The translations under genes and the position numbers were made by a program. The notes below the pieces were generated by a model. It saw nothing but the letters and a program-made list of their open reading frames with translations. It ran no database searches and was not told the DNA's origin. Positions 5,983 to 61,430 of a DNA stretch of 64,000 nt are shown here, one piece after another; within the stretch, counting starts at the first letter, position 1; each line of letters starts with the position of its first letter. Source of the stretch: Octopus vulgaris (taxonomy: Eukaryota); NCBI GenBank assembly GCA_951406725.2, contig OX597828.1, positions 42,098,001 to 42,162,000 on the forward strand. The letters are read 5' to 3'.

Positions 5983-5994
5983 ATATATATATAA

Positions 5995-6200
5995 AGTTAT
6001 TCCAAACATGAAAGCACAAAAAACACAACAACACGAGTACGTGGAACAAATATAGTATCATTGGATGCTCAGGAAAGAAGGAAAGAAGGGGGGTTTAACG
6101 TTTCGAGCGGAGCTCTTCGTCGGAAACATAGGAGAAGGAAAGATCCAGAGAAGGGAAGACAGGGGAAAAAGAATCGCCAACGGTACACACGCGGTCACAT
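5995..6200 (-). mobile_element. short Penelope-like element carrying a minimal hammerhead-like motif (6093-6127)
   Basis: Minus strand GTTT-CCGACGA-A-GAGC-tcc-GCTC-GAAA-CG-TT-AAAC; close paralogue at 37048-37258. Confidence 0.6.
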
Positions 6201-6277
6201 TTTGAGATAGATAGATAGATAAATAGATAGATAGATAGACACACACACACAAACACACGCACATATGTTTATAAAAT

Positions 6278-14454: not shown

Positions 14455-14458
<4 letters not shown>

Positions 14459-14670
14459 GGGGGGGAGAGTTCACGAAAAAAGCCAAAAGACGAAGTCAGG
14501 TTGTGTACAAAACAAACAGATGTATTAGTATAACGCTCAGGAATTGAAAAAGTCTTTTACGTTTCGAGCCTACGCTCTTCTACAGAAAGGGACACAGAAA
14601 AAAAAAACAAGGAGAGAAAGAAGGAGAGAACAAAAGCGTGCGTAGTGGCTACCGATCTATCATGGCGACT
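14455..14670 (-). mobile_element. short Penelope-like element with variant hammerhead-like motif (14554-14589)
   Basis: Minus strand CTTT-CTGTAGA-A-GAGC-gtag-GCTC-GAAA-CG-TA-AAAG; paralogues at 35672 and 61240. Confidence 0.55.
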
Positions 14671-16829: not shown

Positions 16830-17179
16830 TATATATATATATATAGTGAGACATTGCGAACTGCTGTTCATATTGATTTTATATATACACATTTGCGAAT
16901 CATCACCAAATCATCCAATAATCTGAATGGCGAAAGCATAAATACAAATAGCGAAACAGGTCCGTAAAAAGCCGAACAATCGAGCGAGCTTAACTGATGA
17001 GGCGGCGGAAATAGCCGAAACTGACGTCAGTATTAAGAATTCTCGATCGGCACTTTCCGGACAATTAAGTTCCCTATTAATGTACATGTTTTCATTCATG
17101 TGCGTTAACTACAACATTAGAGAGGTTTAGTTCTTATTTCTAGCAATGTAGGTGTTTCCCAACACCCTAGTCACATTTA

Positions 17180-17228
<49 letters not shown>

Positions 17229-17481
17229 AAAGTAAGATAGGGGCTATGACGGTAACTCACTATTGGGATATCAGTTATCCAATATACTGCTGGTAAAGTA
17301 CCTAAATACTAAATACATAAATGCTATATTGTATATTGTTTTGCATATTGATGTATATTGTTTTGTTCGATTTTCATGTTCCCATTTGTATAATTAATAA
17401 ATAATGTGAAATTGTAATATCCGTAAGTTGATGATCGAATTGAATTTGTTCCTCCATTATCTTATATATATATATATATAT

Positions 17482-17690
17482 AGTCGATTCAAATAAATAA
17501 TCAATAAAAAATAATCAATTAAAAAACCGATAATAAAGTTAACGGTCAGCAAGAGGACGTGTACAAGGAATGTATTAGCTCTAAAAGAGGGAGTTTGACG
17601 TTTCGAGCTTAGCTCTTCGTCAGAAAGGAGTAAGGGAAAAGTCCAATGAATGAAAAGAAATCAGCAACAGCACGTTTGTGGTTACATATA
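17482..17690 (-). mobile_element. short Penelope-like element with canonical minimal hammerhead core (17594-17626)
   Basis: Minus strand TTT-CTGACGA-A-GAGC-taa-GCTC-GAAA-CG-TC-AAA. Confidence 0.65.
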
Positions 17691-17753
17691 GTTTGGAACT
17701 TGAAAATTATCAAATTAGAGATTAGTGTGGAAAAAAAATTATGAGAAGCAAAC

Positions 17754-18170
17754 AGGCGCAGGAGTGGCTGTGTGGTAAGTAGCTTACTAACCAACCACAT
17801 GGTTCCGGGTTCAGTCCCACTGCATGGCACCTTGGGCAAGTGTCTTCTGCTATAGCCCCGGGCCGACCAATGCCTTGTGAGTGGATTTGGTAGACGGAAA
17901 CTGAAAGAAGCCTGTCGTATATATGTATATGTATATATATGTATGTGTGTGTGTGTTTGTGTGTCTGTGTTTGTCCCCCTAGCGTTGCTTGACAACCGAT
18001 GCTGGTGTGTTTACGTCTCCGTCACTTAGCGGTTCGGCAAAAGAGACCGATAGAATAAGTACTGGGCTTACAAAGAATAAGTCCCGGGGTCGATTTGCTC
18101 GACTAAAGGCGATGCTCCAGCAATGCCGCAGTCAAATGACTGAAACAAGTAAAAGAAAAGAGTAAAAGAG
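17754..18170 (+). mobile_element. full-length tRNA-derived SINE family B with internal (TA)/(TG) microsatellite
   Basis: A box TGGCTGTGTGG, B box GGTTCAGTCCC, CORE-like ACCTTGGGCAAGTG, GAGTAAAA-type tail; more than 10 related copies or fragments in the window. Confidence 0.9.
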
Positions 18171-35671: not shown

Positions 35672-35850
35672 ATAGGGAGAATTTATGAAAAAAACAAAAG
35701 ACGATGGTATACAAAACAAACAGATGTATTAGTATAACGCTCAGGAATAGAAAAAGTATTTTACATTTCGAGCCTACGCTCTTCTACAGAAAGGTACACA
35801 GAAAAAACAAGGAGATAAACAAGGAGAGAAAAAATGTGTGTAATGGCTAT
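35672..35850 (-). mobile_element. short Penelope-like element with variant hammerhead-like motif (35758-35793)
   Basis: Paralogue of 14455-14670. Confidence 0.55.
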
Positions 35851-36257
35851 GCCAACTACATGGTTCTGGGTTCAGTCTCACTGCATGGTACCTTGGGCAA
35901 GTGTGTTCTATTATGGTCTCGGGCCGACCGAAGCCTCGTGTGAGTAGATTTGGTAGACGGAAACTGAAAAAGTCTGCCGTATATATATGTGTGTGTGTGG
36001 GGGGATGCGTGTGTGTGTGTGGGTGTGTGCGTGTAGGTGCGTGTGTGTGAGTGGGTGTGTGCGTGTAGGTGCGTGTGTGTGTGTGTTTGTATTTGTGCTT
36101 GTCCCCACCAACATCGCTTGACAACCGATGCTATTTTGTTTACGTCCCCGTAACTTAGCGGTTTGGTAAAAAGACACCGATAGAATATGTACTAGGCTTA
36201 CAAAAATAAGTCATGAGGTCGATTTTCTCGACTAAAGGTGGTGCTCCAGCATGGCCT
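35850..36257 (+). mobile_element. SINE family B
   Basis: Similar to the 17754 copy. Confidence 0.8.
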
Positions 36258-37047: not shown

Positions 37048-37406
<359 letters not shown>

Positions 37407-38780: not shown

Positions 38781-39114
38781 AATTATATATGCATGTTTTT
38801 ATGCGTGCGTGTGTGTGCGCGCGCGTGTATGTATGTATGCGTTTGTATTTATGTGCGTATGTGCTCCCTAGTGACAACAATTCCCATCCAAATTAACTGT
38901 TTTGCTCTCTTCCTGTCCCTCCGAATACAGAGTCTGTTTTCGGGGTGTTGTTCTGTTTTGGAGTGGATTCCAATTTTCCACTGGTTGCTAACCATTGTCG
39001 TCTCCGTTGAATATGATTATAGCCAGCCTGTCTTTTCATTATGTGTTATATTTCTACCCTACCCAGGAGAGTATCGGTCACAAGTTCATTTTTCGACGAG
39101 CAGAGATTATACCT

Positions 39115-39700
39115 ATTTCTTTACTATCCACAAAGGGATAAACACAGAGAGGACAAACAAGTACAGACAAGGGCATTAAGTCGATTACATCGACCCCAGT
39201 GCGTAACTGGTACTTAATTTATCGACCCCGAAAGGATGAAAGGCAAAGTCGACCTCGGCGGAATTTGAACTCAGAACGTAACGGCAGACGAAATACATAT
39301 TTCTTTACTGCCCACAAGGGGCTAAACATAGAGGGGACAAACAAGGACAGACAAAGGGATTAAGTCAATTACATCGACCCCAGTGCGTAACTGGTACTTT
39401 ATTTATCGACCCCGAAAGGATGAAAGGCAAAGTCGACCTCGGCGGAATTTGAACTCAGAACGTAACGGCAGACGAAATACATATTTCTTTACTGCCCACA
39501 AGGGGCTAATCACAGAGGGGACAAACAAGGACAGACAAGGGCATTAAGTCGATTACATTGACCCCAGTGCGTAACTGGTAATTAATTTATCGACCCCGAA
39601 AGGATGAAAGGCAAAGTCGACCTCGGCGGAATTTGAACTCAGAACGTAACGGCAGACGAAATACAGCTACGCATTTCACCCGGCGTGCTAACGTTTCTGC
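39115..39700 (-). mobile_element. SINE family A trimer (3 x ~183 bp) with 14 bp TSD
   Basis: Three near-identical units; CAGAGATTATACCT at 39101-39114 and 39701-39714. Confidence 0.9.
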
Positions 39701-39940
39701 CAGAGATTATACCTGTGAAGCAGTCACATATTGAGGGACCCACCGACCAAGTTCAGACACTTGCTTGTTTCCGAAAAGGTGTTTTATGACCAAAGAGTGA
39801 AATGAATGGAGCTGTTTTGCTAATTCTGATGCAGTCGGTTTTGAATTTTCTTCGGTTACACTTTTCAGAAATCCAATATTGACATCACTTGGTCATCCAG
39901 ATAGCGGAGAATCTACCAGCGAAAAATTTGCCAGATAACT

Positions 39941-40419
39941 GGCCAAAGCATCTCGAAAGAGTCCAGAAGCTGGCTACCCGCATGGTTCATGGTCTCAAGA
40001 ATTTGTCTTATGAAGAAAAGCTGAAGACGCTCGACCTTTATTCTCTAGAAAAACGCCGCCGCCGTGGTGATCTCATTCTCGCTCGCAACATCATAAGCGG
40101 AAAGTGTAACATCCCGAAAGAGCTGTTCTTCACTCCTGCTCCAGAGCGTCGGCTGCGGGGTCATTCCGAAAAGCTCTACCTGCGGCGATTTCATCTCAAT
40201 CGAAGGAGAGGAGCTTTCTCCGTCCGGGTTGCGGATCCGTGGAACAAGCTGCCAGACGAGATGGTGAAGATGCCGACGACCGCTTTGTTCAAAGCCTCCC
40301 TTGACCTCAAGTGGCCTGAACTCTTTACATGAACACCACCCTGTATATAACTCCATGTCCCCCTACATGGCCTTGCTTTTTGCTTTTGAGCCAAAAAATT
40401 AACTAACTAACTAACTAAC
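39941..40419 (+). mobile_element. 5'-truncated CR1/L2-clade LINE 3' end with (TAAC)n tail
   Basis: LERVQKLATRMVHGLKNLSYEEKLKTLDLYSLEKRRRRGDLI...PWNKLP. Confidence 0.9.
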
Positions 40420-46491: not shown

Positions 46492-48184
46492 TGTTTCTTT
46501 ATTAGCCACACAGGGCTGCACACAGATAGAACAAATTACAAGGTAGAGCTTTTCTTTTGAAGGTTTAAGAAAGAAAAAAAAAAAAAAAAAAGGAAGGGGG
46601 AGTTTCGATCAAAAGGGATCGTAAAAGGAGAGAAAGAGGACAAAAAAAAGGGGGTTTAAAAAAAAAGGGGGGGGGGGAAAAAAATTGATCAATAGGGATC
46701 GTTATCACAGAAATGTCAATATGAAGTGTAAAGGGGAGGACAGGTGAGGTTTACCCGTGCAAAGAAAAGCCTACGGAAAAGACCACGGTAACCTCGGTCA
46801 ATGATGTCACATTTTATATTTCTTTTTTTTTCTTTTTGCAAATAAGCAACTCTCTGTTTTCGATTTCTGGGTTCATAGGACTATGCTCAAGGTGGCTTCG
46901 TCATTCATACGTGCCATTCTTGCTACATTCACCCATCTTTTTTAAAACATTCGCTAGACAAAACTTGCCTCTCTACTCTCACTTTCCTTTTCAAGTGGTA
47001 CTTGAAGAAGTTGATGAGAGATTGACCAGAGAGGAAAGTGTTTGTCTCCAATCCTTTCAGACGTGTCCACCAGATACATTCTTTCGCCATAGCCACAAGG
47101 ATGATGAAAATAGCTCTTCCTTCCCGTTTGAAGGAAGGAGGCGTGACAATATTGACGATAGACTCAGCTGATAAACCGACTCGTCCCACACGTGACAGCA
47201 GTTGTTCGACATAAGCCCACAGGTCGGAAATTGTTGGACACTGAACGAGTGCGTGCAGAACGGTTTCGTCGCTCTGACCGCATCTCGGGCAGGTCGGCCC
47301 CGTGTTTCTCGAGCCGTGTCTGTAGAGCTTATCCCGAACGGGTAGCGCTTCTCGGTAGCACTGCCAGGCCAGGGATCTCTGGAAGTTGTCCATGGGCCCT
47401 GGCCCGAAAGTCGTCCTGAACAGGCGGGTCAGGTACTCCTCGTCGACGTCCAGGTTCGCCCCGAGCTCGTCGTCGTACCTCCCCTCCACTAAACCCCTAT
47501 AGAATGCTTTGGTTGTGTTGAAGTCACTTAAGGTCGACCCAGGACGGCAGAGTTGCTTGAGAGCAACGCGACACTCGCGGTGCCATTCGCCCTTCCTCGG
47601 CCTCTTTTTGATCCACGACTGCAGTTCGGTCATGGAGACGAGCTGCGGGAAAGCGTGCCTCACAAACGGCGACCACACCTGTTCACCGTCGTCTACATAG
47701 AGCCAGAGATGCCGCAGTCTCAGCGCGTGTCTGCGCATCATCAACCACGGCATGCCCAGCCCTCCTTTTAACGGGTGTTGACAGCAAATGGATCGCCTGA
47801 CCATCGGGACGCATCCTTTCCACAAGAAGCGAAAGAGGATGCGTTGTAGTTTGGTGATGGTAGGGTCGGGACAAGGTACGACGGTCAGGCGGTAGTAGAT
47901 GACGGACGCGATGTACGTGTTCGCCACCTCCGCTCGACCTTTTAGGGACAGTTTCCTCTCGGCCCATTGCCGGGCGAGAGTGACCACCCTACTCGTTATC
48001 TCGTTCCAGTTCTTCTCCACTTGGAGGTCCGGACCAAACCAGACCCCGAGCAACTCAACCGGGCCGTCGGTCCAGCGTCCCACGACGGACCGACGGCCCG
48101 GTTGAGTTGCTCGTGTTCTGGTTTGGTCCGGACCTCCAAGTGGAGAAGAACTGGAACGAGATAACGAGTAGGGTCGGGACAAGG

Positions 48185-48186
<2 letters not shown>
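46490..48186 (-). mobile_element. 5'-truncated Tx1/L1-clade non-LTR retrotransposon in a (GATA)n tract
   Basis: ORF with KLSLKGRAEVANT, GGLG and zf-RVT CPRC...ETVLHALVQC; 3' UTR ends AATAAAGAAACAT-(ATCT)n. Confidence 0.9.
46929..48182 (-). pseudogene. Tx1/L1-like ORF2 C-terminal fragment (RT thumb + zf-RVT), still an open frame
   Basis: 417 aa ORF in the track; the first ~30 aa come from the fold-back rearrangement. Confidence 0.85.
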
Positions 48187-48240
<54 letters not shown>

Positions 48241-48286
48241 AAGCTAGAGAGATAGATAAATAGATAGATAGATAGATAGATAGATT

Positions 48287-48352
<66 letters not shown>

Positions 48353-48357
48353 CAGAC

Positions 48358-48420
<63 letters not shown>

Positions 48421-48429
48421 CAGACAGAT

Positions 48430-48592
48430 ATGTTTCTTTATTAGCCACACAGGGCTGCACACAGACAGAACAAATTACAAGGTAGAGCTTTTCTTTTGGG
48501 GGTAAAAAAAGGGGGTTGGTTTTCGATCAAAAGGGATCGTAAAAGGAAAGAAAGAGGACAAAAAAGGGGAGGATTTAAAAAAAAAGGTGGGG
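48430..48592 (-). mobile_element. second, heavily truncated copy of the same Tx1-like 3' end in (GATA)n
   Basis: ATGTTTCTTTATTAGCCACACAGGGCTGCACACAGA is identical to the sequence from 46491 onward. Confidence 0.9.
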
Positions 48593-49065: not shown

Positions 49066-49290
49066 TCTAAAGCAGATATGTGTGTGTGTCTGTGTGTACG
49101 TGCGTGTATGTGTGTGTGCGCGTGTATGCACACACTGTTTATATCTGATTAGCGTTCGTGTGTGTGTGTGTGTGTGTGTGTACACACACACACATATACA
49201 CGAACGCTAATCAGATATAAACAGTGTGTGCATACACGCGCGCACACACATACACGCACGTACACACAGACACACACACATATCTGCTTT

Positions 49291-57632: not shown

Positions 57633-59225
57633 TATATAATGCCTTATGACACTGTCGATATGACTTCTGAAGCAAACCATATTTCAGGTTGTACCAGTCA
57701 CTGTGATATACTCCACATACGACAGTTTTTGTGACATGCACAAATTTGTTTATGACACAAGCGGTATAATCAATTATTTATGTTACGCTCAATATAATTT
57801 AAGTCACATACCAAATTATTCACACTGTTTTCTATGGTGCATACAATATGAATCATACTTCATAGTTACTATTTATGCTACTGGATTAAGTATTTCCTAG
57901 CGAATAGAACACATGTTGTGGTCGATGGAGTCCACTGAAGCCCAGCAAAAGTCACCAGTGGTGTTCCTCAGGGGACTCTCTTGGGCCCGCTTCTCTTTAT
58001 AATTTACATAAACGAACTTTCCAGCGTCGTAAATCACGGCAAAGTGAAAATAATTGCTGATGACGCTAAGCTCCAGCAAATCATCAATAAAGAAGACCGA
58101 ACTCAACTCCAGTGTGATCTATATGCTGTGAGTCAAAGGGCAGACAAAAATAAAATGCAACTAAAGGAGGGAAAATTTGAGCTGATGCATTTTGGAAGAA
58201 AGTCTATACTAAAACAGTCATACTCTCTTCCTTCAGGGGAACCGCTCACAGCATCTAATGACATCAGAGACCTAGGTGTAATTGTTTATAACAATCTCAA
58301 TTGGAGTGCCCACATCAACAATAAGGTCAATATAGCTCGCAGGATGCTATATCGACCTTATTGTTCTTAAGACCTGGATCTTAAGAATCTTCCGGTCCAG
58401 AGAACAAGATGTCATCATTCCACTTTTCTCCTCCTTTGTACGGCCAAACCTCGAATACTGCTGCCCCTTGTGGTCTCCCCATACAAAACAAACATCTCAA
58501 AAATTCAATCACCCCAGAGGGCACTCAGTAACGAATTGAAGGCATGACTGATCTCGATTACTGGCACCGTCTTGAAACTCTACTCTCTCTAGCGCCGTAC
58601 GATGTGGAGAATATACCGCCAGCATTGCCCAAACGACCTGAAGATTAGTTTCAAGGTTCATCCAAGGCTGGGACCACGGGCCATCCGTCCCCTGCCCAAT
58701 TCAGGATCACAACATATAGATACATTGCAACACAATTTCTTCTCCTCAATTGTCCCAAAACTGATCAAAGAGAAAAAGGATCCCATCGCCTTTAAACGGA
58801 GTTTGGACAGATTTCTTCAAGGAACACCAGACAAGCCACCCATACCTGGATACAACTCACTCAACAAGAACTCACTACTTGAATGGACCATAAACAAAAC
58901 TTGACTTAAACAGGATTTAGATAATCCTATTAGTTGGTGCTATTAAGTCAGACATGGCCTGGACCAATCTTTGGTCGAAACATATCTAAGTTTTACCTAA
59001 GTTTTATGATATAATTTATCAAATACATAATTATATTTGTTATTATGTATGACACACTGTATTATGATGTCTACAATATTATTTTTGGCTCATACAAAAA
59101 TAATTTCATATCACATACGCAATAGTTTTCGCATATTATATACGGCAATTACAATATCATTCATGGCACAAATCATATGAATTTATGACACATACAAAAT
59201 TATTTGTGGCATATACAATATAATT
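56645..59225. repeat. degenerate AT-rich minisatellite (~21 bp, TTTATGA(C/T)ACATACAATATAA) split by a LINE
   Basis: The motif TTTATGAYACATAC recurs at 56645-57850 and 59005-59225. Confidence 0.7.
57880..59004 (+). mobile_element. 5'-truncated, decayed CR1/L2-like LINE (RT domain to 3' end)
   Basis: VTSGVPQGTLLGPLLFIIYINEL...IADDAKL...RDLGVIV...VRPNLEYCCPLWSP; stops and frameshifts; CTAAGTTT repeat tail. Confidence 0.9.
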
Positions 59226-61239: not shown

Positions 61240-61430
61240 ACGGGAAGCTTTATGAAAATAAACAAAAGACGAAGGCAGGTGGAGTACAAACAAATGTATT
61301 AGTATGGCGCTCAGGAATATAAATAAAACAAGTCTTTTACGTTTCGAGCCTACTCTCTTCAACAGAAAGATACACAGAAAAGAAACACGGAGAGAAACAA
61401 GGAGAGAAAAAAGGAGAGACAAAAAAGGAT
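61240..61430 (-). mobile_element. short Penelope-like element between (TA)n tracts with variant hammerhead-like motif (61334-61369)
   Basis: Minus strand CTTT-CTGTTGA-A-GAGA-gtag-GCTC-GAAA-CG-TA-AAAG. Confidence 0.55.

What the first reader, a model, noticed from the sequence alone, without database searches (positions are those of the whole stretch)
17594..17626. Minimal hammerhead family: six copies in 64 kb with a palindromic ACGU stem III
Seen: the pattern stem I-CYGWNGA-A-GAGC-loop-GCTC-GAAA-CG-TH-stem I at 6093-6127(-), 14554-14589(-), 17594-17626(-), 35758-35793(-), 37124-37158(+) and 61334-61369(-). Stem II is kept (one mismatch at 61.3 kb) while its loop varies (tcc, taa, gtag), and stem I co-varies (GTTT/AAAC versus CTTT/AAAG). 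This copy has the canonical CUGACGA and GUC; 35.8 kb has ATGT in place of ACGT. All sit in ~200 bp elements next to (TA)n, and five share a downstream TTCCTGAGC...ATAC. Established: Penelope minimal hammerheads replace helix III with a palindromic tetraloop and cleave as dimers. Inference: a very high-copy, TA-targeted, non-coding Penelope-derived or retrozyme-like family.
Basis: partly seen in the sequence, partly recalled or inferred. Interest (0 to 1): 0.72.

Follow-up and report, generated by a model that had tools for sequence, protein, structure and literature searches.

The report
Penelope retrotransposon ends with minimal hammerheads
Six short repeats in this animal DNA carry a stripped-down hammerhead RNA motif almost identical to one published from a coral Penelope-type jumping gene; they are likely the cut-off tail ends of such genes, likely present in about a hundred thousand copies and predicted not to cut themselves, so the kind is known and mainly the abundance stands out.

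Summary
The six motifs are real and at the stated coordinates; 60 shuffles gave none. They form three subfamilies of ~180-270 bp units, all ending in (TA)n 83-111 nt past the motif. The design is the published minimal hammerhead of Penelope-like elements (PLEs). The focal 27-nt core differs by one loop base from a coral-type repeat found in metagenomes, where 11 of 97 loci run upstream into a Neptune-type GIY-YIG endonuclease. A near-identical motif is listed for an Acropora Neptune element (PMC4209133, Table S1/Fig. S3). No parent ORF was found in the window, so descent in this genome is inferred. No head-to-tail joints appeared in 20,937 contigs, so a tandem retrozyme is unsupported. Only the focal copy has a consensus core; the others carry U4C or A6U, and monomers are predicted to misfold, so cleavage is unlikely. 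Summed contig depth suggests roughly 1e5 copies of one subfamily, a rough figure. A seventh, better-formed hammerhead at 16989-17037(+) was missed. This scan noted similar PLE ends elsewhere in this genome. Verdict: new member of a known kind.

The parts
17594..17626 (-). Focal minimal type I hammerhead (subfamily C): stem I 17624-17626/17594-17596 (3 U-A pairs), core CUGACGA 17617-17623, extra A at 17616, stem II 17612-17615/17605-17608, GAAA 17601-17604, palindrome ACGU 17598-17601, predicted cut after 17597
17483..17755 (-). Element carrying the focal motif; 3' end in (TA)n at 17465-17482; homologous to subfamily A from 17688 to 17548; 5' limit uncertain (17688-17755), next to an unrelated dispersed repeat
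   Evidence: A profile E 2e-10
5994..6207 (-). Subfamily A element, hammerhead 6093-6127 (U4C core, GUU site), (TATC)n at 5' side, (TA)n at 3' side
37049..37257 (+). Subfamily A element, hammerhead 37124-37158 (U4C core, GUC site), (TA)n on both sides; 86% identical to the 6093 copy
14457..14669 (-). Subfamily B element, hammerhead 14554-14589 (A6U core, GUA site), TA-rich on both sides
35675..35853 (-). Subfamily B element, hammerhead 35758-35793 (A6U core, palindrome broken, outer stem I pair broken)
61240..61428 (-). Subfamily B element, hammerhead 61334-61369 (A6U core, stem II mismatch), (TA)n on both sides
37176..37184 (+). Example of the conserved downstream box TTCCTGAGC (five of six copies; a related box shows in loose ends of subfamily C contigs); complementary to the GCUC-GAA half of the hammerhead

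Best explanation
These six ~200-bp units carry a minimal hammerhead motif and end in (TA)n, and they are likely heavily 5'-truncated insertions (solo pseudo-LTR ends) of Neptune-type Penelope-like retrotransposons that are predicted not to self-cleave where they sit. Shown: motif, fixed 3' end in (TA)n, three subfamilies, and linkage of the near-identical motif to a PLE RT/GIY-YIG ORF in other animals. Inferred mechanism: the element's RT-endonuclease nicks a TA microsatellite, starts reverse transcription at a fixed point about 85-110 nt downstream of the hammerhead, copies back through it and usually stops 60-130 nt further on, before the ORF. The motif is carried along as part of the terminal repeat. 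In the parent it may act as a weak, protein- or dimer-assisted ribozyme; in these dispersed single copies it is most likely inert.
For: Pattern scan of metagenomes gave 120 loci. Core and stem I were not in the pattern, yet 71 of 97 low-GC loci have the CYGWNGA core against 0 of 23 high-GC loci. The focal 27-nt core differs from the second commonest of these motifs by one loop base. 11 of 97 loci (8 distinct insertions) run on the same strand into a GIY-YIG C-terminus ending about 95-140 nt upstream. Homologues are ~800-aa RVT_1 + GIY-YIG proteins with a CX4CX2C linker, with coral names on two hits; that linker marks Neptune/Nematis (PMC8557442). L121 holds RT+EN upstream of the motif plus an inverted truncated copy. 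PMC4209133 lists the same design in both terminal repeats of an Acropora digitifera Neptune element and says most minimal hammerheads occur as single motifs, probably truncated PLEs. In the anole PLE, reverse transcription starts 111-118 nt into an ORF whose hammerhead cut is at +26, about 85-92 nt downstream, and ribozyme mutants still insert (PMC11167929); this matches the 83-111 nt here. (TA)n is a described PLE target (PMC8557442).
Against: No PLE ORF remnant in the window (best iE 0.14) and no protein hit for the frame upstream of the focal copy. No genome was available, so the parent in this genome is not shown. Similarity to the coral-type family is confined to the motif. Five of six 5' ends fall 59-81 nt upstream of the motif, which could mean a defined unit. 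0 of 6 copies have an adjacent inverted copy against 29 of 97 metagenome loci. The coral-type copies are not next to (TA)n (0 of 97).
Confidence: 0.62

Rival explanations
1. Non-autonomous ~210-nt mini-elements derived from a PLE terminal repeat, transcribed on their own and mobilised in trans by a PLE enzyme; the hammerhead-shaped segment is kept as a protein-recognition structure, not for cutting.
For: Both A copies start within about 6 nt of each other and five of six 5' ends lie 59-81 nt upstream; no ORF remnant; subfamily A reached very high depth although about 65-71% of depth has U4C, and all three B copies have A6U; non-autonomous PLE derivatives are described for Chlamys (PMC8557442).
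Against: Short copies dominate in the coding coral-type family too (86 of 97 loci do not reach the ORF), so 0 of 6 is expected about half the time; six copies are too few to define a 5' end; no tRNA head found; contig depth could not resolve the 5' end because the copy laid diverges there.
Confidence: 0.28
2. Non-LTR retrozyme: tandem units cleaved by dimeric hammerheads to give circular RNAs that are re-inserted.
For: Type I hammerhead in a short non-coding unit of fitting size; matching contigs occur in two runs guessed to be RNA; other tandem hammerhead families were noted elsewhere in this genome by earlier, unchecked scan notes.
Against: All six copies are single; none of the listed joints links the 3' end to the 5' start in 5,948 + 11,687 + 3,112 + 190 contigs; retrozymes are defined by tandem units and mostly canonical hammerheads; cores depart from consensus.
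Confidence: 0.06
3. Chance resemblance of a SINE-like repeat to a hammerhead.
For: No Rfam hammerhead family matched the focal region; stem II is invariant, so gives no covariation.
Against: 0 descriptor hits in 60 shuffles; all four stem I pairs show two-sided changes across 11 hand-picked window and metagenome copies; published near-identical PLE motif.
Confidence: 0.02

Closest known systems
Minimal hammerheads (min-HHR) of metazoan Penelope-like elements, especially the Acropora digitifera Neptune motif (Cervera and De la Pena 2014, PMC4209133; read main text parts 1-2 of 4 and supplement file 2 parts 1-2 of 3; file 1 not available)
   Same: Type I topology, extra base between A9 and G10.1, G10.1-C11.1 pair, A-CG-U palindrome instead of helix III, 3-4 bp stem I, U-rich 5' flank, mostly single dispersed copies, several divergent families per genome; the Acropora entry differs from the focal core by one stem II base and one loop base.
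   Different: Five of six copies have U4C or A6U cores, absent from the 56-row alignment as read; estimated abundance about 1e5 against 9,000 as the top figure in the parts read; no cephalopod entry ('Octopus' 0 hits in file 2); parent ORF not shown in this genome.
Poseidon element of Anolis carolinensis, PAc (Frangieh et al. 2024, PMC11167929; read parts 1-2 of 4)
   Same: Fixed genomic 3' end about 85-110 nt downstream of the hammerhead cut site; AT-rich targets.
   Different: PAc is a coding Poseidon element whose ORF starts inside the hammerhead; no such frame seen here. PAc cleavage was measured (protein-assisted, not needed for insertion); nothing was measured here.
Animal non-LTR retrozymes (PMC7229834, passages and section 15; bioRxiv 10.64898/2026.07.22.740005, part 1 of 5)
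   Same: Short non-coding unit with a type I hammerhead, high copy number (axolotl 126,247 motifs), link to PLEs.
   Different: Those are tandem arrays with canonical hammerheads and shown circular RNAs; these are single copies with minimal, mostly non-consensus cores and no detected junctions.

Membership tests
PLE minimal hammerhead (min-HHR) | Type I core CUGANGA + H, GAAA, UH with no helix III | tested here: met
   Met fully by the focal copy; the other five have U4C or A6U
PLE minimal hammerhead (min-HHR) | Extra nucleotide between 9 and 10.1, and G10.1-C11.1 pair | tested here: met
   6 of 6 copies
PLE minimal hammerhead (min-HHR) | Palindromic 15.1-16.1 segment | tested here: met
   ACGU in 5 of 6; AUGU in 35758
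PLE minimal hammerhead (min-HHR) | Self-cleavage as dimer or with protein help | not testable with these tools
   Folding predictions only
Neptune-type Penelope-like element | Motif lies in the terminal repeat downstream of an RT + CX2-5CxxC + GIY-YIG ORF | tested here: inconclusive
   Met for the near-identical motif in metagenome loci and L121; no ORF in the window; genome not held
Neptune-type Penelope-like element | Fixed 3' end downstream of the hammerhead with variable 5' truncation | tested here: inconclusive
   3' ends fixed at 83-111 nt in 6 of 6; 5' ends 59-81 nt in five, up to ~130 in one; n too small
Neptune-type Penelope-like element | Partial tandem or inverted insertion structures, 30-40 bp tail | tested here: inconclusive
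   0 of 6 window copies against 29 of 97 metagenome loci with an inverted neighbour; 0 of 6 has probability about 0.12 at that rate
Non-LTR retrozyme | Tandem head-to-tail units each with a hammerhead | tested here: not met
   All six single; no head-to-tail joint in four runs for subfamily A; contigs drop rare forms
Non-LTR retrozyme | Circular RNA of unit length | not testable with these tools
   Only assembled contigs of runs guessed to be RNA were available
Rfam hammerhead families | Match to an Rfam covariance model | tested here: not met
   No hammerhead hit at E<=10 in 16860-17780; none among the best 150 of 393 hits in the window

The most novel reading that the evidence does not exclude
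An octopod genome carries on the order of 1e5 or more copies of ~210-nt non-autonomous mini-elements cut from a Neptune terminal repeat, the densest load of hammerhead-like motifs among the counts I read. Whole subfamilies spread after losing catalytic core letters (U4C, A6U) while keeping stem II, GAAACGU and a downstream box complementary to it, so the fold would serve as a recognition signal for the PLE enzyme rather than as a ribozyme.
Probability: 0.25. Interest if true: 0.55.

Novelty: new member of a known kind. Interest (0 to 1): 0.3.

Why it matters
The kind is published, so the identification itself is ordinary. What would matter is scale and what it allows: if roughly 1e5 copies in several subfamilies with consensus, U4C and A6U cores are confirmed, they form a natural mutagenesis set for the open question of whether PLE hammerheads need to cut for the element to move. 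They would also account for a measurable share of poorly classified short repeats in this genome.

Tried and rejected
Whole-genome count: no genome held. Raw reads X22/X23 laid 1 and 0 reads of 12.9 million each on the focal element: no test, not used. Rfam: only microsatellite-driven miRNA hits. Pfam on 137 ORFs from the 97 low-GC loci found no RT or GIY-YIG domain; the link came only from translating frames upstream and searching homologues. A by-eye likeness of the frame upstream of the focal copy to a Neptune C-terminus was not supported by HMM or protein search and is dropped. Viral contigs: no motif, no Neptune relative. tRNA head: none. The 5' decline in depth on subfamily A is confounded by divergence of the copy laid and is not used as proof of truncation. 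The downstream box as an off-switch: predicted pairing 0.00-0.85 depending on copy and length folded, 0.01 in the focal copy, at most 0.03 in seven metagenome copies, so only a lead. RNA runs X12 and X14 are guesses and give no strand or level; expression is not claimed. PMC12602865 passages held nothing relevant. Earlier-finding look-ups by sequence gave nothing.

Full report
Observation. The six motifs are present at the coordinates and strands given. A structural descriptor finds five of them, misses 35758 because its palindrome is ATGT, and finds one further hammerhead at 16989-17037(+); 60 block-wise dinucleotide shuffles gave no hit. The copies fall into three subfamilies: A (6093, 37124; 86% identical), B (14554, 35758, 61334; 79-83%) and C (the focal copy). 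Profiles of A, B and C found only these six places in the window, so there are no core-less copies that would bias the comparison. Identity between subfamilies is 236 of 297 (80%) in the core, 259 of 579 (45%) upstream and 377 of 764 (49%) downstream; within subfamilies it is 93%, 72% and 85%. Contigs of DNA run X1 laid on the focal element peak at summed depth 153,000-178,000 on the core and stay under 11,000 on the flanks. All six 3' ends run into (TA)n 83-111 nt after the motif; about 5% of window positions are so placed. 5' ends lie 59-81 nt upstream in five copies and 62-130 nt in the focal copy.

Host. The window is microsatellite-rich animal DNA. The closest named relatives of a LINE fragment at 46.9-48.4 kb are Argonauta hians proteins (62-64%), apart from one hit named for a bacterial metagenome bin. 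An octopod host is therefore likely; my first guess of octopus came from recalled repeats, not from a call.

What the motif is. PMC4209133 (main text parts 1-2 of 4) defines minimal hammerheads of Penelope-like elements by an extra base between positions 9 and 10.1, a G10.1-C11.1 pair and a palindrome in place of helix III, and reports that most occur as single dispersed motifs. Its supplement (file 2, parts 1-2 of 3; file 1 could not be seen) lists an Acropora digitifera Neptune element with the motif in both terminal repeats, differing from the focal core by one stem II base and one loop base. I split them at 48% GC. Of 97 low-GC loci (87 distinct contexts), 71 carry the CYGWNGA core and 45 also H17 and a stem I of 3 bp or more, none of which was in the pattern; 0 of 23 high-GC loci do. 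Their neighbours include animal genes. In 11 of the 97 (8 distinct insertions; many loci hold only 300 nt of flank) the same strand upstream encodes the C-terminus of a GIY-YIG endonuclease. Homologues are ~800-aa proteins with RVT_1, a CX4CX2C linker and GIY-YIG; two hits carry coral names. That linker marks Neptune and Nematis PLEs (PMC8557442, passages); the Neptune label rests on it and on the Acropora entry, not on a tree. Locus L121 shows RT and endonuclease upstream of the motif with an inverted truncated copy, and 29 of 97 loci have an inverted neighbour. Across 11 hand-picked copies all four stem I pairs show two-sided changes; relatedness inflates that control, and stem II was fixed by the search.

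What was not shown. No PLE protein remnant lies in the window (best iE 0.14), the frame upstream of the focal copy has no homologue, and no genome was held. Descent from a Neptune element in this genome is an inference from the motif and the geometry. Absence of an ORF is weak evidence, since 86 of 97 copies of the coding coral-type family also stop short of it. Against a simple equivalence, 0 of 6 window copies have an inverted neighbour and 0 of 97 metagenome copies lie next to (TA)n.

How it likely works. In the anole PLE, purified protein nicks AT-rich DNA and starts reverse transcription 111-118 nt into an ORF whose hammerhead cut is at +26; the hammerhead cuts only with protein and is not needed for insertion (PMC11167929, parts 1-2 of 4). 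The fixed 3' ends here, 83-111 nt past the motif and inside (TA)n, fit the same start point, and (TA)n is a described PLE target. Early termination would leave the ~200-bp units seen. These steps are inferred.

Is it an active ribozyme? Probably not in place. Only the focal copy has a consensus core; A copies have U4C and B copies A6U. U4C is reported to lower activity considerably and most core changes to cause drastic loss (PMC3088659, passages). In subfamily A about 71% (X1) and 65% (X2) of depth has C at position 4. The focal monomer is predicted to fold core-onto-cleavage-site (probability 0.97-0.99) with stem I unformed, as do several metagenome copies; the ACGU homoduplex is worth -1.7 kcal/mol; and the copies lie 3-26 kb apart on both strands. 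Even engineered dimers of a schistosome minimal hammerhead cut poorly. These are predictions; nothing was assayed.

Retrozyme option. Laying four runs on the 37124 element placed 5,948, 11,687, 3,112 and 190 contigs; the seven listed joints are internal skips and none joins the 3' end to the 5' start. Contigs drop rare forms and this copy diverges in its first 25 nt, so this is absence of support, not proof. Retrozymes are defined as tandem units.

Abundance. Summed depth on the subfamily A core is 2.1-2.2 million in X1 against about 13-27 for individual listed contigs, and 3.3-3.7 million in X2 against 35-80, which suggests roughly 0.5-2 x 1e5 copies. The tool warns that summed depth is not a copy number, so this is an order of magnitude only. 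Six copies in 64 kb scaled to about 2.8 Gb (derived from a passage on Octopus vulgaris, PMC13282606; species not established here) gives 1-6 x 1e5, biased upward because the window was chosen for the finding. Published counts I read: 9,000 minimal motifs in Xenopus, over 6,000 in Acropora millepora, 126,247 type I motifs in axolotl, 235 Rfam hits in giant squid. Searches found no paper describing these motifs in octopus; the library lacks most subscription journals and Repbase.

Verdict. Observation confirmed; interpretation partly supported. New member of a known kind, most likely truncated Neptune-type PLE ends (0.62), with a non-autonomous mini-element as the main rival (0.28). Earlier unchecked notes of this scan reached similar readings on other parts of this genome; they are not counted as support. 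Interest 0.3.

Noticed in passing
   Followed up: partly
window 17225-17464: A 240-bp AT-rich stretch between two (TA)n runs, between the seventh hammerhead unit and the focal element; single in the window, no hammerhead seen.
   Followed up: partly
window 37048-37143, run X14 record 18: An 885-nt contig of depth 578 in a run guessed to be RNA has 94 letters at one end on the subfamily A element; the rest could be a parent element or a host transcript.
   Followed up: no
window 37176-37184 and equivalents in four other copies: The downstream TTCCTGAGC box is complementary to the GCUC-GAA half of the hammerhead; predicted pairing varies from 0.00 to 0.85.
   Followed up: partly
window 46929-48437 (-): LINE fragment with zf-RVT domain; nearest named relatives from Argonauta hians, and one 65% identical protein named for a Herbaspirillum metagenome bin, probably contamination.
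   Followed up: partly
L121 (whole locus): A contig inside a bacterial metagenome-assembled genome consists of an animal Neptune-type element in inverted arrangement, likely host contamination.
   Followed up: partly
window 49116-49243: Near-perfect 128-bp inverted repeat with unique arm sequence inside microsatellite DNA; gives a sub-threshold miRNA hit.
   Followed up: no
window 39109-39665: Three tandem copies of a 184-bp unit, 94% matches.
   Followed up: no
window 57939-58370 (+) and 39883-40332 (+): Further LINE-like fragments; the first has an RVT_1 hit, the second no Pfam hit.
   Followed up: no
L001-L120, low-GC loci: The coral-type family also splits about evenly into CUGA (36) and CCGA (35) cores, so U4C recurs in two distant hosts.
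   Followed up: no
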